Virus record (IMG/VR): IMGVR_UViG_3300021961_000037
Location: 32,001-96,000 of that record
Direction: 5' to 3' (one strand)
DNA length: 64,000 nt
From: a virus
In this document: positions 9,186 to 62,807 of the stretch, piece after piece
How positions within the stretch are numbered: the first letter of the stretch is position 1
How the letters are laid out: every line of letters begins with the position of its first letter
The notes under the pieces: model-generated
The model's input: only the letters and a program-made list of their open reading frames with translations
What the model was told of the DNA's origin: nothing
Databases searched by the model: none
Position numbers and translations under genes: made by a program

Positions 9186-9219
9186 ACTTTCAGTAAAGTG
9201 TCTTTGGTTTACTGAAAGT
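9186..9219. repeat. Perfect 12-bp inverted repeat ACTTTCAGTAAA-N10-TTTACTGAAAGT
   Basis: Read directly in the portal-protease intergenic region; operator or RNA hairpin. Confidence 0.7.
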
Positions 9220-11441
9220 CAGTCAAACCTGAAGCGCAAACGGCATCTGCAGTTGTATGTAAGTGACGGCGGAGCAAGTGGGTCGCCAGGGAAGCGAAGC
9301 ATTGTTCCACCGACAGCGAAGCCTTCACCAAAGTCAACTGTCTTGCCCTCAAGGAACTGGTGAGCGGTCCTGACCTTGGAATCTTTGCGTGTGATCCATG
9401 TCTTGGTTAAACCACCAGATTCTTTTCCGGAAAGGTAGACACCAGCATTGAATGCGCTCTGTGCTTCGTGTTCCGCCATTGCGCGGCGGCGCTTGCGTAG
9501 GAGATTAATGAAAATGGCAGCCAAAGCCAGTCGTAGCAATTGCGATTTGTCTTCATCATCCCCAGATGCAAGAGCCACGAGAACCGCTGCCGCAATTTCC
9601 TCAAAAGTTGACTGATTCGCCTGTTGCATTCGCTCAATCTGCTGTTCGGCGAGTTTTTCCAGTTCTTCTTGGTCAATATTCACCGGCATGTTTGTTTTTG
9701 ATGACACATAGTCTTTTGCTTCGTTGCAGATGGCGATAATGACTGGCTTCACATCATCCGACAGTTGCTTGTTCCATACGTCAATGTCAAAGAACATGTC
9801 TGCGGTTAGAACGCCAGAAGAAAGTGCTTTGAGTGACTTCTTCCCAAATGCTTTTTCTACAACTACTCGTTGCTGTCGCTCAAAGAGACGCTCAAGTGTG
9901 CGGTCAAGAATTTCCGTCCACCTATCGGTGTCTGTGTCTGCTTTTGTTTCAACTTCTTCCATGAACTTTTGGTGGAGTTGAGATTGGATTTCCTCAAAAG
10001 CGCTGAGTTGCTGTTCTGCTGGTAGTGCGCCAGTTTCCATCGGTTGTTCTGCGCCAGTTGCGGGAGCCTCTCCTTCTGGTGCTGGAATTGGTGCTGGCGG
10101 TGCCGGCTGTGGCATTTCCGCTGCTCCGTCTTGTGGTGGTAATCCAGCCACGGGAGCATTTTGCTCGGTTCCGACCATGTCAACTGGTTGCTGTTGCTCT
10201 GGTTTGAACGCCTTCTCGGTATTTGCAATCGGAGTAAGGTTCGGATTGGAGAGAAGAGAATCCGCAAGTTCCGACTCAACTTTTTTGCGACCAGTTGACG
10301 ATCGGTACTCGTTGACAGAAATCAAACCTTGCTGGAATTCATCCATCGTGTACCGCTCTCGTTCCTGCTTCGCAAGAATGAGAATCGGAATATCCGCCGT
10401 GTCAAAGTCAACATAGTAATTGTCATCAAGTTCATCTAGCGCACGACTCAATGTATGCAGATGGGGAACCATTGTTTCCATCCAGAAAACACGAAGTTCT
10501 TCTGAGGCATTGCTGAATGTTCTTCCAGCAGCATTTCCTATAACAGACTCTGGAACTCCGAATGCTGAGAGGATTTCTTCTTTCTGGATTTGACGCAACT
10601 GAATGTACGCAGCGTCTCTCGGAGAAGCAGAAGTATCCACATAGTCAACGCCGTCTGTTGACGCAATGACACTTGTGTATCCGACACGGGAAAGATTTCC
10701 GCGGAAACGAGCCTTTAATTCTTGCTTGTCGTCTTCTTCCATGTCGCCACGAACAACGATGAGACCGCCTGGTCTGCCGTCGTTCAACAGATAGTTGCGG
10801 TTGTACAACTTCGCAAGGTTCTCAAGTTCAATTGCGATTCCCGCCGATTCCATTGGCGTGATTGACAGATATGGGTCAAGCGGATGTGGTCGTCGAACCC
10901 AACAAACATCTTCTGGCTTGAGGGTTACCTTTGTTCCGTTGCGCATATCAACTTCATAGCCAGAAACAAATTTCCTGGGGTCTGGAATTGGTGCTGTGTG
11001 TTGTGGGGGGAGGAGATGGAGACCAATGATGCGACCATCACGTCCCCGAACTTTTTCTATGAAGGCACCCCTACTGCTCATGAGCAGTTGCGATGAAAGT
11101 CTGTATCTAAAGACGAACGAGTTTTCGCCCATGTTTGTTTTTGAGTTCAGTAGTTCAACAATTGTTTCGTCTGTTGTGACTATTTCTCCACGCTGATCAT
11201 TGTCTTTGCGAAGCATGACTGGCAGGCGAGCCTGATTGCCGGCGATTGCATCAATACAGCGGAAAACCCATGTGACTTTTTGGATTCCCTCTCGGTATGC
11301 ACGCTCGATATCCCAGCCATCCCGATACGGCTTTCCAGCACGACCAGCATCAAATGCGATTGGGGCACCAGCGTTCAAAATTGATTTTTCTTCAATTCCG
11401 CTACGGATGTCCTTATTGGCGAACCCACTATTCCATGCCAT
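9219..11441 (-). CDS. HK97-family portal protein fused to C-terminal MuF (head morphogenesis) domain
   Basis: Portal motifs VFRCIDAIAGNQARLP, EILSAFGVPESVIG, ISVNEYR; Pro/Gln linker; MuF-type KTWITRKDSKVRTAH...FPGDP...NCRC. Confidence 0.9.
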   Translation of the reverse strand: MAWNSGFANKDIRSGIEEKSILNAGAPIAFDAGRAGKPYRDGWDIERAYREGIQKVTWVFRCIDAIAGNQARLPVMLRKDNDQRGEIVTTDETIVELLNSKTNMGENSFVFRYRLSSQLLMSSRGAFIEKVRGRDGRIIGLHLLPPQHTAPIPDPRKFVSGYEVDMRNGTKVTLKPEDVCWVRRPHPLDPYLSITPMESAGIAIELENLAKLYNRNYLLNDGRPGGLIVVRGDMEEDDKQELKARFRGNLSRVGYTSVIASTDGVDYVDTSASPRDAAYIQLRQIQKEEILSAFGVPESVIGNAAGRTFSNASEELRVFWMETMVPHLHTLSRALDELDDNYYVDFDTADIPILILAKQERERYTMDEFQQGLISVNEYRSSTGRKKVESELADSLLSNPNLTPIANTEKAFKPEQQQPVDMVGTEQNAPVAGLPPQDGAAEMPQPAPPAPIPAPEGEAPATGAEQPMETGALPAEQQLSAFEEIQSQLHQKFMEEVETKADTDTDRWTEILDRTLERLFERQQRVVVEKAFGKKSLKALSSGVLTADMFFDIDVWNKQLSDDVKPVIIAICNEAKDYVSSKTNMPVNIDQEELEKLAEQQIERMQQANQSTFEEIAAAVLVALASGDDEDKSQLLRLALAAIFINLLRKRRRAMAEHEAQSAFNAGVYLSGKESGGLTKTWITRKDSKVRTAHQFLEGKTVDFGEGFAVGGTMLRFPGDPLAPPSLTYNCRCRLRFRFD

Positions 11442-50757: not shown

Positions 50758-51696
50758 TTGCCAGGTCAATCACGGAACACGCAGGGCGGAAAATCGCTTG
50801 CAACGCAGTTGAGTCCTCGCAATATGCGGACTGGAACTGGTCAAGTGAACGCATTGTGGCAGGGTCAAGGTCCACCGTTTCTTGCTACTGGTGGTACTGG
50901 AACAACGCTGAACGGATTTAGGTATTTGGTATTCACAAGCAGCAGCACTCTTACCGTTACTGACGGTGGGACCGCAGAGGTTCTTGTTGTCGCTGGTGGC
51001 GGCGGTGGCGCATCAAACAACGGTGCTGGTGGTGGTGGAGGCGGTATCCGCACTAGTACTGGGCTTACTTATCAAAGTTTGGAATTCTCGTCCGGAACCT
51101 ATTCCGTGACGGTCGGGAGTGGCGGCACAGCACCTGGCGATGGAGTCGTAGGCAATGGAGGCAAGGGCGGTAATAGCAGCATTGTTCACAGCGGTGGCAC
51201 TCTTTCTGCAACTGGTGGCGGAGCAGGAGTTTACGTTGGCGATGGTGGTGATGGTGGTTCGGGTGGTGGCAGAAACCAATACAATGGTGGCAGTCGTGGC
51301 GGTTTAGGCAACCAAGGTGGCTACACGCCGTCAGAAGGAAATAATGGTTCTGCTGGCGGCTCACCGAATGGTATCGGTGGCGGAGGTGGTTTCAATGCTG
51401 CAACCAGTACCGGTCACGGAGCACAAGGTTTGACAGTAAATAACCTTGATTCCAACTTGTCAACGATTCTCGGTTATACGGTTATTTCGTCTGGTGGTGG
51501 TGGTTCTGGTAACTGCAACGCTGGTGGAACAAACGGCGCTGGTGGAACAGGTGCAGGAGGAGGCGGATACGGCAATAATGCTGGTGCTGGTGTTTCCTAT
51601 GGTTCTGGCGGAGGTGGAGGAAATAACTGTTTCGGCTCCGTCTATCACGGCGGTGTTGGAAAATCAGGTGTCGTTGTGGTGAGGTTCCCAGCGTGA
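50758..51696 (+). CDS. Gly-rich adhesin-like protein
   Basis: EVLVVAGGGG...GKSGVVVVRF. Confidence 0.8.
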   Translation: MPGQSRNTQGGKSLATQLSPRNMRTGTGQVNALWQGQGPPFLATGGTGTTLNGFRYLVFTSSSTLTVTDGGTAEVLVVAGGGGGASNNGAGGGGGGIRTSTGLTYQSLEFSSGTYSVTVGSGGTAPGDGVVGNGGKGGNSSIVHSGGTLSATGGGAGVYVGDGGDGGSGGGRNQYNGGSRGGLGNQGGYTPSEGNNGSAGGSPNGIGGGGGFNAATSTGHGAQGLTVNNLDSNLSTILGYTVISSGGGGSGNCNAGGTNGAGGTGAGGGGYGNNAGAGVSYGSGGGGGNNCFGSVYHGGVGKSGVVVVRFPA

Positions 51697-52532: not shown

Positions 52533-53143
52533 CTTCCAAACCCATTATTGAGCAGTGGTTCCCTAAACCTTTATATATTGTGAATGACTTCATGGTCGAT
52601 GAGTTGGTGATGTATAAAAAATGGTTATACGAACTGTTTTCTTTAAATGATGACATGAAGAGGACGGAAGAATTAAATGTAAATAGCACGCATAACATGA
52701 CAACTCTTCATACGCAGGATATTTTCAGGAACTTGTCAAACGAGATAACGAAGAATGCAACTCAATTCGTGAGAATGCTCGGGTATTCTGGCGACCTTTT
52801 CATTAACAACATGTGGGCTAATCATGTTGTCAAGGGTGAATACTTATTCCCCCACAACCATCCGAACAGCATGTTGAGCGGCGCCTACTATGTTGAGTCT
52901 GACCACCCCGAAGATGTAATCAAATTTTACGATAATCCCATGAACATGCTTCCTGCGCCAGACGAGTACACATCACTTAGTTACGATTATTGTGCATACA
53001 GATGCCAGCCTGGAAGACTGATTCTCTTTAAGAGCGATTTCATTCATGGCTGCCCTGCCCTAAAAGGGGAAAGCAAAATTGTGATGTCTTTCAATATTGG
53101 GTTTGTCGGTTCTTTTGATTTTGAGGTCACCAAACCCGCATAA
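52529..53143 (+). CDS. 2OG-Fe(II) oxygenase (TIGR02466-like)
   Basis: WAN, HNHPNSMLSGAYY, HG, MSFN. Confidence 0.85.
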   Translation: MTSKPIIEQWFPKPLYIVNDFMVDELVMYKKWLYELFSLNDDMKRTEELNVNSTHNMTTLHTQDIFRNLSNEITKNATQFVRMLGYSGDLFINNMWANHVVKGEYLFPHNHPNSMLSGAYYVESDHPEDVIKFYDNPMNMLPAPDEYTSLSYDYCAYRCQPGRLILFKSDFIHGCPALKGESKIVMSFNIGFVGSFDFEVTKPA

Positions 53144-53251
53144 AACTCAATGAGTATTTGCCCCAAATCACCTTAACTGCTAGTTTATTTCAAATCAAAT
53201 ACATCTAAATGGTGTAAAATTAGGTAACTTCTGATTTGTTTGGAGACCCAG

Positions 53252-53428
53252 TTGAGTATCGCATTTCCGAGCGCCCCTTCCAACGACCAAGAATTCATTG
53301 CCGCGGGGAAAGCATGGACATGGAACGGCTCACGGTGGCTCAGGTCTGAATACTCCATAATTGATGGTGGCAATTCGGGAAGTGAACAGAATACCGCAAA
53401 ATATATTTACGACGGTGGGACGGCATAA
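53252..53428 (+). CDS. FPxxP + (I/Y)DGG linker protein (cassette 5)
   Basis: IAFPSAP...WTWNGSRW...IDGG...YDGG; TTG start after GGAG. Confidence 0.7.
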   Translation: MSIAFPSAPSNDQEFIAAGKAWTWNGSRWLRSEYSIIDGGNSGSEQNTAKYIYDGGTA

Positions 53429-53431
53429 CTT

Positions 53432-55588
53432 ATGACAGTTCGCAGAATACGACTAAGACGAGATACTGCTTCGGCGTGGACCTCTGCTAACCCAACCCTT
53501 GCGCTTGGTGAAATTGCATGGGAGTCGGACACATCCAAGATAAAAATAGGTGACGGTACTACTGCATGGACTTCCCTTGCCTATTACAATGCCTCACTCA
53601 ACAGCATTGGCGATGTTACGATTACTGACGTAGCCAACGGCGACTTTTTGCGTTGGAACGGTTCGGCATGGATTAATGACGCCGTAAACCTGTCAACGGA
53701 CACGGTCGGCGATTTTGTCCAATCCCTTGTGGCGGGTACTGGTGTTACCGTTTCCAATAACAGTGGAGAAGCAGCCACACCAACAATTCAAATTGGGCAA
53801 GCCGTCGGCACGACAGACAATGTAACTTTCAATACCGTCACCGCCGATCTCACCGGTGATGTAACCGGAAATGCAGACACCGCAACAACTCTAGAGACGG
53901 CAAGAACAATCTCGCTCGGCGGGGACCTGAGCGGCTCAGCATCGTTTGACGGTTCAGCAGACATAACGATTACCGCCACGATAAGTGCCGACTCAACAGT
54001 CCTTGGCACTGATACAACTGGAGATTACGTTGAGTCACTTGTCGCAGGTACTGGCGTAACTCTCACAAACAACACAGGCGAGGGGGCAACCCCTACGGTT
54101 GCAATCGGCCAAGCAGTCGAAACCACAAGCGATGTCACATTCAATACCGTCACCGCCGACTTGACGGGCAACGCCGACACTGCGACGACCCTTGAGACTG
54201 CTCGCACCATCTCGCTTGGTGGAGATTTGTCGGGCTCAGCATCATTTGATGGCTCGTCCGACGTCACAATAACTGCAACCATCGGTGCTGACTCTGTTGC
54301 CCTGGGTACCGACACGACTGGAAACTATGTTTCCGATGTAACTGGCGGAACAGGCGTAACGGTAACACATACTCCGGGTGAAGGTTCGAGCCCGTCAGTT
54401 GCCATTGGTCAGGCTGTTGGAACTGCAGATGATGTCACATTCAATACGGTGACTGCAGATTTGACTGGCGATGTCACAGGCAATGCTGACACAGCAACCA
54501 CACTTGAAACCGCCAGAACAATTTCTCTCGGTGGTGACCTTTCGGGGTCTGCCTCGTTTAACGGTTCTGCAGATGTCACAATCACGGCGACGATTGGCGC
54601 TGACTCGGTTGCACTTGGCACTGACACAACTGGCGACTACGTTGGTTCGCTCGTTGCTGGCACGGGTGTCACCTTGTCCAACAACTCTGGTGAGGGAGCC
54701 ACACCAACGGTCGCCATCGGTCAGTCGGTAGGAACATCCGATAGCCCAACCTTTGCTGGAGCGACATTGGATGCAGTACAAGTTGGAATCACGGCAGCGG
54801 GAGAGATTGACACCGCCTCGGGCAACTTGACCATTGACTCTGCTGGTGGCACGGTAACCGTTGACGACAATTTGGTTGTAACAGGAGATTTGACGGTTTC
54901 GGGAACGACCACAACGGTCAACACCGAAACTATCAACCTTGCCGACAATATCATCACCCTAAACAGCAATGAAACTGGTACTCCGAGTCAGAATGCCGGT
55001 CTTGAAGTAGAGCGTGGAACATCGGCAAATGTTGAGTTGCGCTGGAACGAGACAAGCGATAAATGGGAATTGACAGAAGATGGAAGCACCTATTACGACA
55101 TTGCGACAGAATCCTATGTTGATGCGCAGTCCATTGCTTCACTTGATGATGTCGGCGATGTCACGATTACCTCTGCGGCTTCGGGCGAGTTCCTCAAGTG
55201 GAACGGCTCGGCGTGGGTAAATGATTCAATTCCAACAATCAACACGCTTGATGATGTCGGCGACGTCACGATTACCTCGGCGGCTTCGGGTGAGTTCCTT
55301 AAGTGGAACGGTAGTGCATGGGTAAACGATTCAATTCCGACAATCAACACGCTTGATGACGTCGGCGACGTAACGATTACATCGGCAGCGTCTGGCGACT
55401 TTCTCAAGTGGAATGGTTCTGCGTGGGTCAATGACCCAATTAACCTCGGCACGGACACCACTGGCAACTATATGGTCAATGTTTCTGCCGGAGACGGAAT
55501 AAATGTTTCACACACACAGGGTGAGGGTTCAACAGCAACAATATCCGCAAGGGATACTTTGGTAAGGTTCTACATGGAGGTCATCTGA
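53432..55588 (+). CDS. Long stalk fibre: Mtd-type N-domain + same repeats as giant fibre
   Basis: RIRLRRDTASAWTSANPTLALGE; five TDT(T/V)G repeats; ends TLVRFYMEVI. Confidence 0.85.
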   Translation: MTVRRIRLRRDTASAWTSANPTLALGEIAWESDTSKIKIGDGTTAWTSLAYYNASLNSIGDVTITDVANGDFLRWNGSAWINDAVNLSTDTVGDFVQSLVAGTGVTVSNNSGEAATPTIQIGQAVGTTDNVTFNTVTADLTGDVTGNADTATTLETARTISLGGDLSGSASFDGSADITITATISADSTVLGTDTTGDYVESLVAGTGVTLTNNTGEGATPTVAIGQAVETTSDVTFNTVTADLTGNADTATTLETARTISLGGDLSGSASFDGSSDVTITATIGADSVALGTDTTGNYVSDVTGGTGVTVTHTPGEGSSPSVAIGQAVGTADDVTFNTVTADLTGDVTGNADTATTLETARTISLGGDLSGSASFNGSADVTITATIGADSVALGTDTTGDYVGSLVAGTGVTLSNNSGEGATPTVAIGQSVGTSDSPTFAGATLDAVQVGITAAGEIDTASGNLTIDSAGGTVTVDDNLVVTGDLTVSGTTTTVNTETINLADNIITLNSNETGTPSQNAGLEVERGTSANVELRWNETSDKWELTEDGSTYYDIATESYVDAQSIASLDDVGDVTITSAASGEFLKWNGSAWVNDSIPTINTLDDVGDVTITSAASGEFLKWNGSAWVNDSIPTINTLDDVGDVTITSAASGDFLKWNGSAWVNDPINLGTDTTGNYMVNVSAGDGINVSHTQGEGSTATISARDTLVRFYMEVI
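55142..55435 (+). repeat. Coding tandem repeat, ~3 x 105 bp (LDDVGDVTITSAASG.FLKWNGSAWVND..)
   Basis: Copies at 55142, 55247 and 55352 with high DNA identity. Confidence 0.85.
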
Positions 55589-55589
55589 T

Positions 55590-55952
55590 ATGTCATTGAC
55601 ACAAAAACGACTGGTTGGTCCAACCCAACTCACGACGACGACAAGCACGGTCCTATACACCGTGCCGCAAAGCACGACGACCATCGTGAAGCAGATTATC
55701 CTCTGCAACACGACTGGTTCTGCAGTAACCGTGACGCTGGTTTGCAAGCCGTTGAACGTCGCTCAGGCTTCTTCGCAGAACTTCTTCAACACCCTGTCGG
55801 TTGGGGCAAACGAAACATTGACCTTCCAAACCAACTTGGTTCTGACAAACAACGGAAGCACAGCAAACGCAACGAACAGTGACCAAATCATTGGTTCCGC
55901 AAGTGCAAACACCGCCATCAACATCATCATGAACGGAGTCGAAGAAGCGTAA
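55590..55952 (+). CDS. ~115-aa adaptor (cassette 5)
   Basis: RLVGPTQL, IVKQIILCN, GAN shared with 41959/45970. Confidence 0.75.
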   Translation: MSLTQKRLVGPTQLTTTTSTVLYTVPQSTTTIVKQIILCNTTGSAVTVTLVCKPLNVAQASSQNFFNTLSVGANETLTFQTNLVLTNNGSTANATNSDQIIGSASANTAINIIMNGVEEA

Positions 55953-56689
55953 TGGTCGCTAGTTTTGTTCGCCTGAACAACTCGTCACTTTCGACAGCAG
56001 AGTCAACATCAAGCATTTCTGGCTCGCTGGTGAATTTGGCAAGTTATCTGAACCTTCCAGACCCTGTCTATGGGACTGGAGCGGATGGCGACGCAACCAT
56101 TTCGGCTGACACCACGCTGACAAGCGACAAGTTCTACAAGAACCTCACGATTAACGCCAACATAAAACTAAACCCAGGCGGGTACAGAATATTCGTACAG
56201 AATGTTTTGACCCTAAACAGCGGTTCGGAGATTGGCTACACCACTGGATTTTCCACGGCTGGGACTCTCGCTCAAGGCGGAGCAACAAATACGGCAGTTA
56301 CGCACAGCCTTGGTGGTTCTAGTGGCGCACAGACGGCGACTGCGCCAACGGCCGCCCTTGGTGGTTCTGCGTACTACCAGCAGCCCCTACAAGCGATTCG
56401 TGGCTGGGCGGTAACAGCAGCCTCAACTACTCCGACGTTCTTGCGTGGTGGTGCTGGCGGCTCGTCTGGCGCTGGTGGCGGAGTTGTTCTTATTTCGGCT
56501 CGCTATATCACCGTTTCTTCGGGTACTGCGTATTTCAAGGCGCCTGGAACTGCTGGTTCCGGTGGCGGTGGTGGCGGGGTCATTCTTGTTGTTTCCTCTG
56601 CGTCGGTACTTAATGCAAGTGTTTCCACTGATGTAACTGGAGGAACTGGCGCATCGGCTGGCACGGTGAACTACATGCAGGTGGCGTGA
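55952..56689 (+). CDS. Gly-rich tip protein, second type
   Basis: YGTGADGDATIS..TTL..DKFY.NLT...IFV; paralog of the next gene. Confidence 0.7.
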   Translation: MVASFVRLNNSSLSTAESTSSISGSLVNLASYLNLPDPVYGTGADGDATISADTTLTSDKFYKNLTINANIKLNPGGYRIFVQNVLTLNSGSEIGYTTGFSTAGTLAQGGATNTAVTHSLGGSSGAQTATAPTAALGGSAYYQQPLQAIRGWAVTAASTTPTFLRGGAGGSSGAGGGVVLISARYITVSSGTAYFKAPGTAGSGGGGGGVILVVSSASVLNASVSTDVTGGTGASAGTVNYMQVA

Positions 56690-56690
56690 C

Positions 56691-57767
56691 ATGGCATTTG
56701 AGAGGCTTGGAGCAGACAGGAATCCCGTACAGAAGACGGGAACCGACAAATTGTTCGGTGCTGGCAGCGACGGAACAGTAACCATCTCCACGAACACGTC
56801 GCTTTCACGCGACATGTATTACGCCAACCTCACTGTGAACTCTGGAATCACGCTTTTTACCAACGGATTCAAGATTTTTGTTAGCGGGAACTTGGTAAAC
56901 GACGGCACAATAGGAATGCCTACTGGAACAGCACAGACGACTTCGGTCATGGCAGGAACGACCATGACGAGAATTGACGGTAATGCTGGGTATGTTTCGG
57001 GCGATGCCTTGTCGGGAACAATGACGATTGCCGAGGTCCGTGACATTGAAGCGCTTGTCACGGGCGTAATGCAAAAAGGTGCCACGCGAAGGGTGTGGTG
57101 GTCTGGTGCTACTGGAACTGCTGGCACTAGCGGAACCGCAAACCCCGGTGGTGGCGGAAATGCAACTGCTGGTACTGCGGGAACTGGTGGTTCGGCAGGT
57201 CAGGGCGGTGGCTCCGTTGTCGTTCTCGCCAAGTCAATTAGTGGGTCTGGAACATTTGTGAGCGAAGGAACTGCTGGAACTTCGGGAAATCCAGGAACCG
57301 CTGGAAGCAACGCACCGGGAAACCCAGGGCATAACCCCGGCGGGCATGCTGGCGCACATAATCCTGGCGGTCATGCACAAGGACATAACCCCGGCGGAAC
57401 TGGCCATAACCCACCCGGTCACTTCCATCACCCCGGTCACCATCAGGCGCCGAATTGCGGAGTCCATGAAGTTTGGGGCTGCTCGCATCATCACCCCGGT
57501 CACCACAACCCCGCGCACCAACACACAAACCCTGGAAACTCCTTCTCACATCCAGGAAACCCATTCCACTACTCACATCCAGGAAACCCATTCCATTACA
57601 GTCACCCCGGCAACCCGTTCCACAACCCATCTTATTCTGGTGGCACTGCCAACCCAGGAAATGCAGGAAACCCAGGAAATGCTGGAAGTCTCGTTGTTTT
57701 GACCCGAGGAATCACTACCCATGTCGCAACCTCCAACTTGACATACGTGGAGGACCTAGATGACTAA
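56691..57767 (+). CDS. Gly-rich tip protein with His/Pro/Asn/Gly hairpin insert
   Basis: FGAGSDGTVTIS..L.RDMYY.NLT; 25 His within 57321-57629. Confidence 0.8.
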   Translation: MAFERLGADRNPVQKTGTDKLFGAGSDGTVTISTNTSLSRDMYYANLTVNSGITLFTNGFKIFVSGNLVNDGTIGMPTGTAQTTSVMAGTTMTRIDGNAGYVSGDALSGTMTIAEVRDIEALVTGVMQKGATRRVWWSGATGTAGTSGTANPGGGGNATAGTAGTGGSAGQGGGSVVVLAKSISGSGTFVSEGTAGTSGNPGTAGSNAPGNPGHNPGGHAGAHNPGGHAQGHNPGGTGHNPPGHFHHPGHHQAPNCGVHEVWGCSHHHPGHHNPAHQHTNPGNSFSHPGNPFHYSHPGNPFHYSHPGNPFHNPSYSGGTANPGNAGNPGNAGSLVVLTRGITTHVATSNLTYVEDLDD

Positions 57768-58068
57768 TATCGACTATAATGGTAATGTCAACAGTGCAGT
57801 AACAAACGCAAGTTATTGGAGGATACCTAGGATGCCATACGATTTTTCAAGCCTTTCAGCAGATGACGTTGCACAGGCAAAAGCCCGTGTAAAAAAGGAA
57901 CTTGAGCGACAGATGTACGAGGCAACCCTCAAACTGGAACTCAACCCCGCGACATATGACTACGATGCCCACACCATTCCGGAAGACGAGTTTGCGCCGG
58001 GATATGCGTACAAACTGCAGATTTCTGCATGTTTGAGCCAAATTGCCTTCATTAATGGCATGGAGTAA
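57760..58068 (+). CDS. Small partner protein
   Basis: Overlaps the end of the His-rich gene. Confidence 0.6.
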   Translation: MTNIDYNGNVNSAVTNASYWRIPRMPYDFSSLSADDVAQAKARVKKELERQMYEATLKLELNPATYDYDAHTIPEDEFAPGYAYKLQISACLSQIAFINGME

Positions 58069-58078
58069 ACCTCTGGTT

Positions 58079-58087
58079 TGCTAGTCT
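58079..58087 (+). promoter_or_regulatory. Extended -10 TGC-TAGTCT, probable leaderless promoter of the enzyme operon
   Basis: TGn-TAnnnT ending 6 nt before ATG 58094; no SD. Confidence 0.4.
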
Positions 58088-58093
58088 TTTTGC

Positions 58094-58696
58094 ATGGACC
58101 ATACAGAACTAGCGCCTTGCCTTGTCTTGTTCGAGGACGTTTTCAAGCCCGGTAACTTCATTGAGTTGCTTGAGGCTGAATGTCAACAGCAGTGGGGGTA
58201 TCTGTCGTGGTACCTCACAACCGTTGGGCAGGGTCAAACACGGGTTGAGTACAGGTCATCTCTTGCGTGTGAACTTGGGGCATTGGGTCAACCGCTAAAT
58301 GAAATAGCGGAACCGCGAATAATGCCGCTAGCAGAAAAATGGCACGACATTCACAATGACCTGCAAAAGTGTATATGGTCGTATAGAAACATGTACGACA
58401 TTGACGTAAAAGAAGACGAAGGAATGACGGTGCTCAAGTACAGCAAGGGTGCAGAGTACCGAGGACATGTTGACCACGCTCCGTCAAACCAAAGAGTTTT
58501 TAGCATCGTTGCGTTCGCAAATGACAACTTTGACGGAGGTGAATTGACATTCCCGATATTTGATGTGACAGTAAAGCCAAAGGCTGGAAGTGCGGTTTTG
58601 TTTCCTTCAAACTTCCCGTATTTCCACTACGCGCAGGCTGTCGGTTCAACGAACAACACAGACACCAAGTACTCATTTGTAACTTGGTTTAGGTAG
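58094..58696 (+). CDS. 2OG-Fe(II) oxygenase, prolyl-4-hydroxylase-like
   Basis: LKY..G.EY..HVD, FDGGEL.F, FPS...FH, KYSFVTW. Confidence 0.9.
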   Translation: MDHTELAPCLVLFEDVFKPGNFIELLEAECQQQWGYLSWYLTTVGQGQTRVEYRSSLACELGALGQPLNEIAEPRIMPLAEKWHDIHNDLQKCIWSYRNMYDIDVKEDEGMTVLKYSKGAEYRGHVDHAPSNQRVFSIVAFANDNFDGGELTFPIFDVTVKPKAGSAVLFPSNFPYFHYAQAVGSTNNTDTKYSFVTWFR

Positions 58697-58700
58697 ACCG

Positions 58701-60164
58701 ATGCTGCCGAGGGTATGCATTGTAGGTTCTGGAACCTCCGGATTGGTTACCGCCTTGATGTTGAGGGCGTTTTTCCCCAACATCAAGGTGACGGTTATAT
58801 CTTCCAAAGACATCGGGATAATTGGTGTCGGCGAGGGTTCTACTGAGCACTGGCGTCATTTTTTTCAGCAGCCATGCGATATAGACGCTGGAGAGATGGT
58901 TGCCCGGTGCGCCGCCACCCATAAATACGGAATCAAATTTGAGGGCTGGACTACACACACTCCAATCTATTACCACAGCATTAGCGGAGAGGGTCACGGA
59001 CCAAATAACTTTAACGCTGTTTACTCTTTCGCCCACTTCAACGACTGGTTGCTAACGCCATCAATGATTCCACACCTGGATAATGACATGGTTGTAGATG
59101 ACGTCAAGCAACCCCATGGCACCACAAATCAGTTTCACTTTGACACTCATAAACTAAACAACTTTTTGACGTATCTTGCCGAAAAACGTGGCGTAACATT
59201 TGGCGACGGGAAGATTGTAAAAATTGACAGGAATTCAGAAACGGGTTTTATTGAGTCGGTAACAACTGACACAAACATTAAGTGCGAGGCAGATTTCTTC
59301 GTTGATGCAAGCGGATTTGCAAGAGTGCTGATGAGTAAACTTGTTGAAAACGATGAGTTTGTCAGTTACAGAAAATACCTGCCGTGCGACTCAGCAGCCG
59401 TGTTCCAGACGGAATCTGACCCATCTGGGAAAATCCACCCATATACGAGGGCTCGCGCGATGCCGCATGGCTGGATGTGGGAAATACCGACACAGGAGCG
59501 CAGAGGAAACGGCTATGTATTTGCCTCAGATTTCTGCTCCGACGAGCAGGCAGTCAAGGAACTGTCCGAGGCTCATGGTAGGGACATAGAGCCGGCAAGA
59601 ATAATTAGATTCAAGTCTGGCTACTACAAGCACGGTATTGCATTTAACTGTGCGGCTGTCGGTCTTTCTAGTTCATTTGTGGAACCGCTTGAGGCGACCG
59701 CAATAAGCACCAGCATTCAGCAATCACGCATGATTGCGGCAATTTTGCCGACCTTCATGCGTGGCAATAAGGCACAAACAAAGAACTATCAGCAACGCTA
59801 CGAAAGTTTGCTTGAAAATATTGTCACGATGATTTCTCTCCACTACATCTCGGATAGAAATGATTCAGAGATGTGGAAGGCGCAACAACATGCCGAACTT
59901 CCGGAAACACTGAAGGTGCTCCTCGAATTGTGGAAGGAGAGAATGCCCGAAAAATACGATGTTCCGCATTTCGGGTATGAACTGTTTCTTTCAGAGCATC
60001 TTTGGCATGTTGCACAGGGTCAAGGAGTTCTTGATAAGTCTGTTGCCCTGGACCAATTAAACGCCTACTGCTCACATGACCCGTGTGCAAAAATTTTCTC
60101 CTCCAAAAAACTGCAGGCAGCAGCAACAAGGAAAATTGACCATGCGCTTCTCTATAAGGCGTAA
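58701..60164 (+). CDS. Flavin-dependent (tryptophan) halogenase
   Basis: GSGTSG, GVGEGS, ATHKYGI (catalytic Lys), HFD, WMWEIP, FVEPLEAT. Confidence 0.92.
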   Translation: MLPRVCIVGSGTSGLVTALMLRAFFPNIKVTVISSKDIGIIGVGEGSTEHWRHFFQQPCDIDAGEMVARCAATHKYGIKFEGWTTHTPIYYHSISGEGHGPNNFNAVYSFAHFNDWLLTPSMIPHLDNDMVVDDVKQPHGTTNQFHFDTHKLNNFLTYLAEKRGVTFGDGKIVKIDRNSETGFIESVTTDTNIKCEADFFVDASGFARVLMSKLVENDEFVSYRKYLPCDSAAVFQTESDPSGKIHPYTRARAMPHGWMWEIPTQERRGNGYVFASDFCSDEQAVKELSEAHGRDIEPARIIRFKSGYYKHGIAFNCAAVGLSSSFVEPLEATAISTSIQQSRMIAAILPTFMRGNKAQTKNYQQRYESLLENIVTMISLHYISDRNDSEMWKAQQHAELPETLKVLLELWKERMPEKYDVPHFGYELFLSEHLWHVAQGQGVLDKSVALDQLNAYCSHDPCAKIFSSKKLQAAATRKIDHALLYKA

Positions 60165-61002
60165 ATCGCCAACGGTTAAGCCTGGAATCTGGGAAAACCT
60201 TCCAGTCCCAAAACCAAACCAGTTATTTGCCGCCCCTGTTGACAATCGTTTGTGGCATCCGAAATTGGCGATTAGACCATCTCGCTCCAAAACACCTGAA
60301 TGGTTTAAGGATATTCCGCAAGGCGAGGCGAGCCTCAAGCGATGCTACGGGGTTGCAGACTATCTAAGAACTGGATACGTGGTTCCGATGTGGGCGACGT
60401 TGGACGTAAGAATGCCCCTAAATAAATTGGATAAAAGATGGGAAGCACGTTTTGATATACCAGCGTCCCATCTATTTACCGCAGAGATAGCAACCGACCT
60501 TTCCGAGCAAGACAATAACTACTACTTTAGTTATGAATCATTGATGCGAAATCAATTTCCGATTCACCAAACGGGGAGTGAGTGCCCGGTTGCAAAACAA
60601 AAAAACCGCGAGTCTTCATACCTAAAATTACCAAGTCCCTGGGTGGTGAGAACTGCGCCCGGATGGTCCTCCCTCTTCCTGCCAACCCTCTGGGAGCCAA
60701 ATGATGACTATGAGGTTCTTGGAGCCGTGGTGCATACGGATTACTATCCGAACGCCAACTGTGTAATAAACATAAAGACAAACAGACCGCTAAGGATTGA
60801 GGAGGGAACAATCATGCAACACATAATCCCCTTCAAGCGAGACGCATCAATCTTGGAGACAGAGGTAATACGAGGAGACCAAACCGCCCATACACTGTTG
60901 AGGGATACTGGATTCGGTCCAGTTTTCACAACAAAAGAAGACACGCACGGCGGGTACAAAAAAGAACAACGCAGAATGGATGGATTGGTTTCTGATGTAT
61001 AG
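60142..61002 (+). CDS. Hypothetical protein (DUF6065-like)
   Basis: KRC.GV.D...GYVVP, TAPGWSSLF, VVHTD, IEEGT..Q.IPFKR. Confidence 0.65.
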   Translation: MRFSIRRKSPTVKPGIWENLPVPKPNQLFAAPVDNRLWHPKLAIRPSRSKTPEWFKDIPQGEASLKRCYGVADYLRTGYVVPMWATLDVRMPLNKLDKRWEARFDIPASHLFTAEIATDLSEQDNNYYFSYESLMRNQFPIHQTGSECPVAKQKNRESSYLKLPSPWVVRTAPGWSSLFLPTLWEPNDDYEVLGAVVHTDYYPNANCVINIKTNRPLRIEEGTIMQHIIPFKRDASILETEVIRGDQTAHTLLRDTGFGPVFTTKEDTHGGYKKEQRRMDGLVSDV

Positions 61003-61447
61003 AGTCATATTTTGCCCTCAAGAAAAACCAGTTGAAGATGCCTACGACATGGCAAAAGAGTGGGGGTTGTCCATACAGCACGGTGACTCGGCGCGCACCG
61101 AGGACATGGAGTTTGACAGGACGGAAGTGCAAGTTCTCTCCATTCCAATTCAGCGCGGATTTGATGCGGAAAGAATTGAGTGTTTGGTCAATATGCCGGT
61201 GTCGGTAAAGTACTCAAACGATTGGGACGACGTTTCTGATTACACATTTCTACTGCGCCCAACTGGTATGCGTGTCGGCAAAACCAACTGGGGTGTCCCA
61301 TCGATACTTATGGACAAACATAGGGCGGTAATGAACATTGCCGTTAGTTTCCCTGGCTCATACGAACTTGTCTCTGTCAAGGATGGAGTAGATAGAGAAA
61401 TATCCGAGTTTATAGCGATGGAGCGCGAAGGGGAATATCCAGAGTGA
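60995..61447 (+). CDS. Hypothetical protein
   Basis: ORF overlapping both neighbours in the enzyme operon. Confidence 0.65.
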   Translation: MYRVIFCPQEKPVEDAYDMAKEWGLSIQHGDSARTEDMEFDRTEVQVLSIPIQRGFDAERIECLVNMPVSVKYSNDWDDVSDYTFLLRPTGMRVGKTNWGVPSILMDKHRAVMNIAVSFPGSYELVSVKDGVDREISEFIAMEREGEYPE

Positions 61448-62151
61448 TTGAATTTATCGGTCACAAATCAACACACATAGCAGTAGTCCCAGACATAATT
61501 CCTCCTGACTTGTGCAATGGCTTGATTGATGCATGCAAGCGCGACTGGAATTCTTTGTTTTACCAAGGCCCGACACTTTCTGGTGTGGATACATCAATTA
61601 AGTACACGATGGATTTTGACTTCAGCGGGAAACAAGCACAGGAAAAAGGTTGTGATTACGACCTTTACAAAAATTACGAAGACAGAATCACGCAATGCCT
61701 GTGGACCGCAGTATCTCTTTACGTTGAGGCGTATTCAGAAATGCGGGCTGCCCCAGGATTGTGGGATACCGGATATCGTCTTCAGACCTACAAGCAAGGA
61801 ACTGGATATTATCGGTCGCACCACGACGGCGCGCCTTGGGACCCAGAACCGACAAGTCTTCGCGTGTTGGGTGTAGTGATGTATTTGAATACTGTTGAGC
61901 GTGGAGGAGAAACCGGCTTCCCTATCCACGACCTCAAAGTAAAGGCTAATGCTGGCTCAATAGCCCTTTTCCCAGCATCTTGGACACATCCTCATCAGTC
62001 ATGTGTTCCTGTTTCTTGCGACAAATGGATAATTAGCACCTTCATCGTATCTAATCGACGCCAGCCGACAATTAACGAACCAAGCCAACAAGTTCCAGTT
62101 ACGGTCATTGACACCAATCCAGAGAATCAGGGAAATGAGGAGGGAACATGA
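61444..62151 (+). CDS. 2OG-Fe(II) oxygenase, P4H-like
   Basis: HHD, YLN...GGETGF, FPASWTHPH, KWII. Confidence 0.9.
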   Translation: MIEFIGHKSTHIAVVPDIIPPDLCNGLIDACKRDWNSLFYQGPTLSGVDTSIKYTMDFDFSGKQAQEKGCDYDLYKNYEDRITQCLWTAVSLYVEAYSEMRAAPGLWDTGYRLQTYKQGTGYYRSHHDGAPWDPEPTSLRVLGVVMYLNTVERGGETGFPIHDLKVKANAGSIALFPASWTHPHQSCVPVSCDKWIISTFIVSNRRQPTINEPSQQVPVTVIDTNPENQGNEEGT

Positions 62152-62798
62152 AATCCAAGTTCCCCCTAGTCATAAAGCAACTTGTTCCAAGCGCTGAAGT
62201 CCGAAAATTCATATCCGACACACAAGGCAGTCAAAGAACAGTCAAAAGCACTGGGTGGGGTCGTGCCACCAATGACATACCGATAATAAAAGACATGTCA
62301 ACCCAAACTATTGGTGGTTCGTTTTGGGACATTATGTATTCTTGCGCCAAGGAGCACTTTGGTGAAACGGCGCTCCCTTCATACTGGAAGTGGTCTCGCT
62401 ATTCGCCAAAATACGGGGCGCCGAATATTCCACCACACATTGACATAAATGCGTGTACTTACACAATTGATTTGCAGTTGATGGGGGATGTTGAGTGGGA
62501 GATATTTGTTGAAGGGACACCATACACAATGCAAGACGGTGACGCCCTTTTATACCTTGGCTCTGAGCAAATGCATTGGCGACCCAAATACCCGAATCGC
62601 AACTATAAATCATTCTTGGAAATGTGTTTTATTCATTTTGTTGAACCCGGGCACTGGTATCACGAAAATGGTCCAAAGTGGATAGATTCAGATGATGTGA
62701 GATTGCCGTGGAGAGAGAAAATGATGCATTTGCTGCCAAAATATAAGTGCGACACATATCAGCCATTTGAGGACCCAACTGAATTTCCCGGGTACTAG
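62148..62798 (+). CDS. 2OG-Fe(II) oxygenase
   Basis: PPHID..CTY, GDALLYLG...HWR, FIHF. Confidence 0.85.
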   Translation: MKSKFPLVIKQLVPSAEVRKFISDTQGSQRTVKSTGWGRATNDIPIIKDMSTQTIGGSFWDIMYSCAKEHFGETALPSYWKWSRYSPKYGAPNIPPHIDINACTYTIDLQLMGDVEWEIFVEGTPYTMQDGDALLYLGSEQMHWRPKYPNRNYKSFLEMCFIHFVEPGHWYHENGPKWIDSDDVRLPWREKMMHLLPKYKCDTYQPFEDPTEFPGY

Positions 62799-62807
62799 GA
62801 TTACCAG

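What the first reader, a model, noticed from the sequence alone, without database searches (positions are those of the whole stretch)
57321..57629. Mirror-symmetric His-rich hairpin with a Cys-bounded Trp loop in a tip protein
Seen: a 103-aa insert with 25 His. Pro spacing on the outgoing arm is 9,9,7,7 (HNPGGHAGA, HNPGGHAQG, HNPGGTG, HNPPGHF). Then comes the loop CGVHEVWGC (57456-57482), and on the return arm the spacing is 7,7,9,9 (NPAHQHT, NPGNSFS, HPGNPFHYS x2). The two arms differ in sequence but mirror each other in period, and the paralog at 55952 lacks the insert. Established: the T4 gp37 needle is an out-and-back structure whose HxH motifs bind Fe. Inference: an antiparallel, metal-stitched needle whose arms expand in register and present a disulfide-closed tip; it may bind Fe/Cu/Zn or target a metal-uptake receptor.
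Basis: partly seen in the sequence, partly recalled or inferred. Interest (0 to 1): 0.85.

Follow-up and report, generated by a model that had tools for sequence, protein, structure and literature searches.

The report
Fold-back histidine ladder on phage fibre protein
A tail-fibre-module protein of an uncultured lake phage carries a histidine-rich insert whose two halves have kept exactly matched, mirror-ordered repeat lengths through many changes, so the chain almost certainly runs out and folds back on itself as a two-armed stalk with a fast-changing tip.

Summary
ORF 56691-57767 (358 aa) holds a 103-aa insert with 25 His, against 1 His in the other 255 residues. Its repeat units read 9,9,7,7, then a centre with the loop C-GVHEVWG-C, then 7,7,9,9.

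In two subfamilies of homologues, about 36 of 37 distinct proteins (19 of 20 repeat architectures) have outgoing and returning arms with identical unit lengths in mirror order. Arm length ranges from 19 to 66 residues. The two arms use different peptide motifs, and there is no DNA palindrome.

The loop is hypervariable, but its Cys and Trp are not conserved. The scaffold looks like a beta-solenoid/Gly-rich domain (weak fold matches, including monomeric gp38 adhesins), not T4 gp37. His-x-His motifs are absent from the arms. AlphaFold2 gives no confident structure for the insert. Trimer state and metal binding could not be tested.

Two WhiB genes point to an actinobacterial host, which weakens the idea of a metal-uptake receptor target.

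Verdict: a real fold-back paired-rung stalk. Metal stapling is plausible but unproven. The scan found the same design before on other DNA (e1-6021341, e1-5977840).

The parts
56691..57767 (+). Gene of the His-insert protein (358 aa plus stop)
   Evidence: ORF list. There are 168 homologues with E<=1e-3 in metagenomes and 156 related viral loci. No Pfam or PHROG family matches.
56691..57320 (+). Scaffold, N-terminal part (residues 1-210): widely shared ~55-aa motif (residues 20-76), beta strands, Gly-rich G-X-Y-like runs
   Evidence: AF2 pLDDT is about 90 for residues 20-210. The best fold matches are beta-solenoid types at Z 5-6.5, with gp38 adhesins at Z 4.8 and 4.0. The motif matches 1174 representative clusters.
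57330..57425 (+). Outgoing arm, residues 214-245: units of 9,9,7,7 with core H-N-P-G-G
   Evidence: Parsed. Positions 1 (His) and 5 (Gly) are invariant in all 90 units of 19 proteins, and position 3 is Pro in 88 of 90. The unit cores differ from each other mostly at synonymous sites (13 synonymous vs 3 non-synonymous codon differences).
57426..57527 (+). Centre or 'knob', residues 246-279: HHPGHH ... Cys loop ... HHPGHH-NPAHQHT
   Evidence: Holds 12 of the 25 His. An exact 17-nt direct repeat (coding HHPGHH) at 57426 and 57489 brackets the loop. AF2 places short strands at 244-247 and 276-279, at low confidence.
57456..57482 (+). Loop C-GVHEVWG-C (residues 256-264)
   Evidence: Translation. 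In relatives the loop is 6-10 residues of unrelated sequence. The Cys pair is absent in P0010, P0015 and P0016, and Trp occurs only here.
57528..57623 (+). Returning arm, residues 280-311: units of 7,9,9 plus a constant last unit of 7, core H-P-G-N-P-F
   Evidence: Parsed. Its 32 residues equal the length of the outgoing arm. Phe6 is invariant in all 7- and 9-residue units; His7 and Ser9 are invariant in all 9-residue units. Codon differences between unit cores: 12 synonymous vs 6 non-synonymous.
57624..57764 (+). Scaffold, C-terminal part (residues 312-358): Gly-Asn-Pro run, then two beta strands
   Evidence: AF2 pLDDT is 84-95 for residues 311-340, with strands 333-341 and 351-355. This part is conserved in all close homologues.
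55952..56689 (+). Paralog without the insert (245 aa)
   Evidence: BLASTP gives 46% identity over the N-terminal motif. It sits directly upstream of the His-insert gene in about 75 of the 80 related viral loci.

Best explanation
The gene encodes a tail-fibre-module protein of an uncultured lake myovirus that probably infects actinobacteria. Its compact scaffold, made of beta strands and glycine-rich segments, is interrupted by an excursion that runs out, forms a His-rich knob with a hypervariable loop, and runs back.

The two arms lie side by side, antiparallel, as a ladder of paired 'rungs'. Each outgoing unit (core HNPGG plus 0, 2, 4 ... residues) pairs with a returning unit of exactly the same length (core HPGNP plus 0, 2, 4 ...). 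Adding or removing rungs changes how far the knob is held from the scaffold.

What is shown: matched, mirror-ordered unit lengths across relatives, and strong peptide-level constraint on the units.

What is inferred:
- The extensions are short beta-type strand pairs, because unit sizes step by two residues.
- The invariant His residues at every rung bind divalent metal ions that staple the arms.
- The knob and loop contact the host surface.
For: 1. Arm lengths are equal in 15 of 16 proteins over 19-49 residues.
2. In subfamily A, the unit-by-unit parse gives 19 proteins in 12 architectures, 11 of them exactly mirrored. None of 200,000 shuffles reaches 11. Nine non-palindromic architectures fit mirror order and exclude direct order.
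3. Metagenome loci add the architectures [7,5,7,7,9,9] and [7,5,9,9,5], both mirrored. The second is the balanced twin of the only exception.
4. In subfamily B, which has a different centre and units of 5, 9, 10, 13 and 15, all 15 proteins in 6 architectures are mirrored.
5. L005 has new 16-residue units at mirrored positions.
6. Sister proteins on the scaffold tree differ in architecture (P0016/P0015, P0013/P0010, P0006/P0004), so matched changes arose repeatedly.
7. No DNA inverted repeat exists that could couple the arms, and the arms use different peptide motifs.
8. Unit positions are near-invariant: His1 and Gly5 in all 90 outgoing units and Pro3 in 88 of 90, Phe6/His7/Ser9 in returning units. 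Unit cores differ mostly synonymously, so this is a constrained structure and not a disordered linker.
9. More distant relatives with other chemistries also show balanced arms: L033 has 8/8 units with identical spacing and almost no His; L049 has 8/8 with mirrored spacing; L010 has 4/4.
10. The scaffold on both sides of the insert is modelled with pLDDT about 90.
11. Fibre context: the gene follows a 718-aa fibre with an Mtd_N domain. In the related loci compared (for example L003, L007, L009), the His-insert protein is less conserved than the upstream p120 and paralog genes.
Against: AlphaFold2 gives no confident structure for the insert, either here (pLDDT 35-56) or in a short-armed relative (pLDDT about 40). 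No coordinates could be inspected.

One protein, P0007, has unbalanced arms (35 vs 26 residues). This may be an assembly collapse of a near-identical 27-nt repeat, but that was not checked.

Metal binding is pure inference. Relatives such as L033 build balanced arms almost without His, so His or metal is not required for the architecture itself.

Neither virion location nor receptor binding is shown.
Confidence: 0.6

Rival explanations
1. T4 gp37-type needle. The protein is a homotrimer, the six arms form a six-stranded antiparallel needle, and axial Fe(II) ions are each bound octahedrally by His from three chains.
For: The out-and-back topology is supported by co-variation. The gp37 needle is an out-and-back structure with seven His-coordinated iron ions (PMC6957217; PMC11705849). 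Some relatives have alternating H-x-H-x-H extensions, for example the 13- and 15-residue units of subfamily B and P0014 with 6 HxH in its outgoing arm.
Against: There is no sequence similarity to gp37 or to any solved chain and no Pfam hit even at E<=10. The arms of this protein and of most close relatives contain no HxH motif; His spacings are 4-7 residues. The scaffold resembles single-chain beta-solenoids and, weakly, monomeric gp38 adhesins (gp38 is monomeric per PMC12032242).
Confidence: 0.15
2. The insert is mainly a substrate or display region for the neighbouring enzymes (a P4H-like 2OG oxygenase, a flavin halogenase and further oxygenases). Hydroxylation, halogenation or cross-linking of its X-Pro-Gly/His/Asn/aromatic repeats, rather than metal ions, gives the arms their stability or adhesive chemistry. 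This is compatible with the fold-back topology.
For: The order p120, paralog, His-insert protein, P4H-like gene, halogenase, further ORFs is kept in most of the 80 related viral loci. It holds even where the His-insert protein is only 30-40% identical. The arms hold many X-Pro-Gly triplets. Tandem dioxygenase/halogenase clusters of unknown substrate are known from cyanophage Syn9 (PMC2938197).
Against: There is no direct evidence of modification. Trp in the loop is unique to this protein. Pro content varies widely among relatives, from 15 to 106 Pro. In some loci the enzymes lie upstream of the module or are separated from it (L030, L033, L053, L064).
Confidence: 0.25
3. A disordered, low-complexity His-rich spacer or 'metal sponge' without fixed pairing. 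On this view the symmetry is a by-product of repeat expansion.
For: AF2 confidence for the insert is low in two models. The composition is highly biased.
Against: Exact mirror-ordered matching of unit lengths in about 36 of 37 proteins, despite different motifs in the two arms and no DNA palindrome. Near-invariant residues inside units, and mostly synonymous divergence between units.
Confidence: 0.05

Closest known systems
Needle domain of the phage T4 long-tail-fibre tip, gp37 (Bartual et al. 2010, as described in PMC6957217 and PMC11705849)
   Same: A fibre-module protein in which the chain runs out to a small distal receptor-contacting part and returns. It is His-rich, and in gp37 the His residues bind metal along the needle.
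   Different: There is no detectable sequence or profile similarity. The arms here lack regular His-x-His motifs. The base is a beta-solenoid/Gly-rich scaffold rather than an intertwined trimeric collar. The arms are built from modular 5+2n-residue rungs whose number varies between close relatives. Trimer state and iron binding are untested.
Gp38 adhesins of S16/T2-type phages: monomeric, with a beta-helix plus polyglycine-II sandwich whose Gly-rich motifs alternate with hypervariable loops (PMC12032242)
   Same: A small protein encoded after the fibre gene, with conserved Gly-rich segments flanking a hypervariable segment. Fold matches are weak: 6f45_D at Z 4.8 and 9v85_C at Z 4.0.
   Different: No Pfam GP38 hit. 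The Z scores lie in the range of chance-level common arrangements. In gp38 the variable segments are four-residue turns, whereas here one 'loop' is a 100-residue two-armed stalk (up to several hundred residues in relatives).
HxH iron-binding tail fibres and the 'Ferrojan/Trojan horse' idea (PMC11705849)
   Same: His-rich phage fibre segments proposed to bind metal and possibly to exploit metal-uptake receptors.
   Different: The HxH motifs that define those sites are missing from the arms here. The likely host is an actinobacterium (two WhiB genes); from general knowledge, such hosts have no TonB-dependent outer-membrane receptors.
Dioxygenase/halogenase gene arrays of cyanophage Syn9 (Iyer et al. 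2010, PMC2938197)
   Same: The gene lies directly upstream of a conserved array of 2OG oxygenases and a Trp-halogenase-type enzyme.
   Different: That paper proposes small-molecule products and names no protein substrate. Here the array is tightly linked to a fibre-module protein in dozens of contigs.

Membership tests
T4 gp37 receptor-binding tip (collar-needle-head) | Sequence or profile similarity to gp37 C-terminal region | tested here: not met
   A profile of 76 homologues searched against all PDB chains gave a best E of 0.11 to an unrelated protein and no gp37 match. No Pfam family matched at E<=10.
T4 gp37 receptor-binding tip (collar-needle-head) | Out-and-back chain path with antiparallel arms | tested here: met
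   Mirror-ordered, equal unit lengths in 19 of 20 architectures. This is an evolutionary inference, not a structure.
T4 gp37 receptor-binding tip (collar-needle-head) | Regularly spaced His-x-His motifs along the arms | tested here: not met
   This protein has 0 HxH in the outgoing arm, 0 in the returning arm and 2 in the centre. The same holds in most close relatives.
T4 gp37 receptor-binding tip (collar-needle-head) | Homotrimer with axial octahedral Fe(II) sites | not testable with these tools
Gp38 adhesin (PF05268; beta-helix + polyglycine-II sandwich) | Match to the Pfam GP38 model | tested here: not met
   No Pfam hit for the whole protein or for residues 1-210 at E<=10.
Gp38 adhesin (PF05268; beta-helix + polyglycine-II sandwich) | Fold similarity to solved gp38 | tested here: inconclusive
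   VIA-align gives 6f45_D at Z 4.8 (119 residues aligned, rmsd 4.3) and 9v85_C at Z 4.0. Both are below generic beta-solenoid matches at Z 5-6.5.
Gp38 adhesin (PF05268; beta-helix + polyglycine-II sandwich) | Conserved Gly-rich motifs alternating with hypervariable segments | tested here: met
   Invariant Gly columns flank a hypervariable insert in the alignment of 76 homologues. The inserts differ widely.
Collagen triple helix repeat (PF01391) | Pfam match or long G-X-Y runs | tested here: not met
   No hit for this protein, and only 4 of 76 relatives match. BFVD matches to collagen-like proteins have TM 0.2-0.4 and reflect composition.

The most novel reading that the evidence does not exclude
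A previously undescribed protein architecture: a single-chain, metal-stapled 'rung ladder' in which each outgoing repeat unit must be matched by a returning unit of equal length. Phages would tune the reach of a hypervariable host-contact knob by adding or removing rung pairs, much as base pairs are kept matched in an RNA stem. The ladder may in addition be the natural substrate of the linked oxygenase/halogenase array.
Probability: 0.35. Interest if true: 0.8.

Novelty: new variant of a known kind. Interest (0 to 1): 0.68.

Why it matters
It gives sequence-only, near-single-residue evidence for how a large family of uncultured phage fibre proteins folds, in a region where structure prediction fails. 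The family has 168 homologues in metagenomes and 156 related viral loci.

It predicts a simple design rule, matched rungs of 5+2n residues, that can be tested by deleting rungs. If the His rungs bind metal, this would be a compact, length-programmable metal-binding beta ladder. Such a ladder would interest protein designers and those studying trace-metal binding by lake viruses.

It also names a concrete candidate substrate for the phage dioxygenase/halogenase arrays, whose targets were left unidentified when they were described in 2010 (PMC2938197).

Tried and rejected
- Cultured-phage searches: megablast of 53000-60500 and tblastn of the His-insert protein and of its paralog against 50,697 phage records found nothing.
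- Pfam and PHROGs gave no family for the protein.
- Foldseek against PDB gave nothing at E<=0.001.
- BFVD gave only composition-driven collagen-like matches.
- ESM Atlas gave only unnamed viral clusters.
- hhalign against the neighbouring Gly_rich_2 protein (50758-51696) showed no relation.
- AlphaFold2 with a 76-sequence alignment gave only low-confidence coil for the insert. So did a second run on the shortest-armed relative, P0016. No coordinates were available to measure arm contacts.
- DNA-level coupling of the arms was looked for and rejected: no inverted repeats.
- Residue-level compensatory changes between paired rungs were tabulated. The only pattern (SG with P versus HA with Q in 7-residue rungs) follows lineage, so it was not counted as evidence.
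- A text search for the motifs HNPGG and HPGNPF found no relevant paper.
As a result, the trimer test, read-level validation of the repeats and a check of the exception P0007 were not possible.
- Simple regex counts of units in very distant relatives (L051, L072, L035, L064, L032) were inconclusive.

Full report
WHAT IS THERE. The stretch 57321-57629 lies in ORF 56691-57767 (+), 358 aa. It has 25 His, 19 Gly, 18 Pro and 13 Asn in 103 residues, while the other 255 residues of the protein contain one His.

I cut the insert into three parts:
- An outgoing arm, residues 214-245, with units HNPGGHAGA / HNPGGHAQG / HNPGGTG / HNPPGHF.
- A centre, residues 246-279, with HHPGHH, the loop C-GVHEVWG-C at 57456-57482, HHPGHH again, then NPAHQHT.
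- A returning arm, residues 280-311, with NPGNSFS / HPGNPFHYS x2 / HPGNPFH.

It omitted the last, constant HPGNPFH unit.

The upstream paralog (55952-56689) shares the N-terminal motif (46% identity over 63 aa). By eye it also shares the strand segments that flank the insert, but it has only a Gly run between them.

CONTEXT. The window is part of a 114-kb IMG/VR viral contig, about 78% complete. It carries a tail sheath, a baseplate wedge, a portal and a terminase, so it is a myovirus. The portal is about 40% identical to portals of Streptomyces, Gordonia and Brevibacterium phages. The contig carries two WhiB genes. An actinobacterial host is therefore likely.

The gene follows a 718-aa fibre with an Mtd_N domain, a 120-aa protein and the paralog. 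It precedes a small overlapping ORF, a P4H-like 2OG oxygenase (PF13640) and a Trp-halogenase-type enzyme. No cultured phage in the 50,697-record collection has a detectable relative of the protein or of its paralog.

Metagenomes, by contrast, hold 168 homologues at E<=1e-3, and IMG/VR holds 156 related loci. In most of the 80 loci fetched, the order 120-aa protein, paralog, His-insert protein, P4H-like gene, halogenase, further ORFs is kept.

THE DECISIVE TEST: DO THE ARMS CO-VARY? Yes.

Subfamily A has HNPGG-type outgoing units and HPGNPF-type returning units. Here the arms have exactly the same length in 15 of 16 proteins, over a range of 19 to 49 residues.

A unit-by-unit parse of 19 distinct proteins gives 12 architectures. 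In 11 of them the list of returning unit lengths is the exact reverse of the outgoing list. Examples are [7,5,7], [7,9,9], [7,5,7,9], [7,5,9,9], [7,7,9,9] (this window), [7,5,7,7,7], [7,5,7,9,9], [7,5,9,9,5,5], [7,5,9,9,7,7], seven 7s, and [7,16,16,9,9,9]. None of 200,000 shuffles of the returning lists among architectures reaches 11 matches; the maximum was 7. Nine non-palindromic architectures fit mirror order and exclude direct order.

Metagenome loci add [7,5,7,7,9,9] and a balanced [7,5,9,9,5]. The latter is the balanced twin of the only exception, P0007, which lacks one 9-residue unit on the return arm.

Subfamily B has a different centre with vicinal Cys and units of 5, 9, 10, 13 and 15 residues. 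It gives 15 proteins in 6 architectures, all mirrored (the one 'no' there is a parsing artefact, checked by eye).

On a tree of the scaffold alone, sister proteins differ in architecture: P0016 vs P0015, P0013 vs P0010, and P0006 vs P0004. Matched changes therefore happened repeatedly.

There is no inverted repeat in the DNA, and the two arms use different peptide motifs. Each change therefore needed separate indels in two places, retained together by selection. This is the protein analogue of compensatory change in an RNA stem, and I take it as strong evidence that each outgoing unit lies beside its mirror unit.

IS IT A CONSTRAINED STRUCTURE? Within units the sequence is nearly fixed:
- Outgoing units: His1 and Gly5 in all 90 units, Pro3 in 88 of 90.
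- Returning units: Pro2 and Gly3 almost always.
- Phe6 is present in all 7- and 9-residue returning units.
- His7 and Ser9 are present in all 9-residue returning units.

In this window the unit cores differ from each other mostly at synonymous sites: 13 vs 3 codon differences in the outgoing arm and 12 vs 6 in the returning arm. That argues against a disordered spacer.

Unit sizes are 5 + 2n (5, 7, 9, 13, 15; the 16 is 7+9). The extensions are often alternating (H-A-H-A..., S-H-S-H...). I read this as short beta-type strand pairs separated by Pro/Gly kinks. This step is inference.

WHAT THE SCAFFOLD IS. AlphaFold2 with 76 homologues models residues 20-210 and 311-358 at pLDDT about 90, and the insert at 35-56. 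A second run on the shortest-armed relative was no better.

Foldseek finds nothing in the PDB. The exhaustive aligner finds beta-solenoid proteins at Z 5-6.5 (bactofilin, Mtd, autotransporter passengers) and gp38 adhesins at Z 4.8 and 4.0. All of these are in the range where only a common arrangement is implied.

No PDB sequence, Pfam family or PHROG matches. The ~55-residue N-terminal motif occurs in more than a thousand representative clusters, at varied positions, in proteins of up to 4356 aa. It is therefore a widespread module.

COMPARISON WITH KNOWN SYSTEMS. The T4 gp37 tip is an out-and-back needle with seven His-bound iron ions in a trimer (PMC6957217; PMC11705849). This insert works like it in topology. 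It fails the membership tests I could run:
- It has no sequence similarity to gp37.
- It has no regular His-x-His in the arms (0 in either arm here).
- It has a different base.

Gp38 adhesins are monomeric, with conserved Gly-rich motifs and hypervariable loops (PMC12032242). The general logic is similar (a Gly-rich frame around a hypervariable segment), but there is no sequence match and the 'loop' here is a 100-residue two-armed stalk.

Relatives push this much further, with inserts of several hundred residues and up to 108 His. Some distant ones again show balanced arms: L033 has 8/8 units with identical spacing and almost no His; L049 has 8/8 with mirrored spacing; L010 has 4/4. The L033 case shows that the fold-back architecture does not depend on His.

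WHAT REMAINS OPEN. Metal binding, oligomer state, disulfide formation, virion location and receptor binding are all untested.

The Cys pair and the Trp are not family features:
- The loop is 6-10 residues of unrelated sequence.
- Three relatives lack the Cys pair.
- Many relatives have a third Cys in the NPxHQH unit.
- Trp occurs only in this protein.

A disulfide-closed Trp tip is therefore at most a local variant, and Cys may equally serve as a metal ligand. A TonB-type metal-uptake receptor is an unlikely target in an actinobacterial host. The linked oxygenase/halogenase array resembles the Syn9 array, for which Iyer et al. (PMC2938197) named no protein substrate. Its tight linkage to this protein makes the insert a candidate substrate, but nothing here tests that.

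EARLIER NOTES OF THIS SCAN. After reaching the co-variation result, I found that follow-ups on other genomes had reported the same design. One was in a relative of this family (e1-6021341) and one in T4-like phages (e1-5977840). My counts are independent of theirs.

VERDICT. The fold-back, register-matched arms are strongly supported. Metal stapling is plausible. Membership in the gp37 family, the disulfide/Trp tip as a general feature, and the metal-receptor idea are not supported. In the literature I could search, I found no description of this rung-matched His ladder.

Noticed in passing
window 55590-62800; loci L003-L082: The gene order 120-aa protein, insert-less paralog, His-insert protein, (small ORF), P4H-like oxygenase, Trp-halogenase-type enzyme, three or more further ORFs is kept in most of the 80 related viral loci. 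In the loci compared, the His-insert protein is less conserved than the upstream 120-aa protein and paralog.
   Followed up: partly
window 57426-57442 and 57489-57505: An exact 17-nt direct repeat (coding HHPGHH) brackets the Cys loop, 63 nt apart. It could mediate loss or exchange of the loop by slippage or recombination.
   Followed up: no
G000:C1:112304-112495 and G000:C1:10183-10386 (outside the window): Two WhiB-family genes lie on the same viral contig, both above the Pfam cut-off. Together with actinophage-like portal matches, they point to an actinobacterial host.
   Followed up: partly
window 57760-58068: A 102-aa ORF overlaps the end of the His-insert gene by 8 nt (start 57760, stop of the upstream gene 57767). 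It is detectable only next to the closer relatives (25-56% identity). It may be a dedicated assembly partner.
   Followed up: no
P0007 versus L089:330-1424: The only unbalanced relative, P0007 (outgoing 7,5,9,9,5; returning lacks one 9), has a balanced twin architecture in L089. The missing unit is one of two near-identical 27-nt repeats, so an assembly collapse is possible.
   Followed up: partly
L051:5001-5912 region, L049, L052, L057: Distant relatives carry extreme inserts: 108 His in 689 aa with HHHH-T-x-x-N units (L051), and proteins of over 1000 aa with about 100 His and about 100 Pro (L052, L057).
   Followed up: no
window 56748-56918 (residues 20-76 of the protein): The N-terminal motif (G-x-G-x-DG ... 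D-x-Y-Y-x-N-L-T-V ... L-F-T-N-G-F-K-I-F-V) matches 1174 representative protein clusters. It is often internal, in proteins of up to 4356 aa. No Pfam model covers it.
   Followed up: no
window 9219-11441 (-): The 740-aa portal aligns over its whole length with a 'portal and MuF-like fusion protein' of Streptomyces phage Gilgamesh.
   Followed up: no
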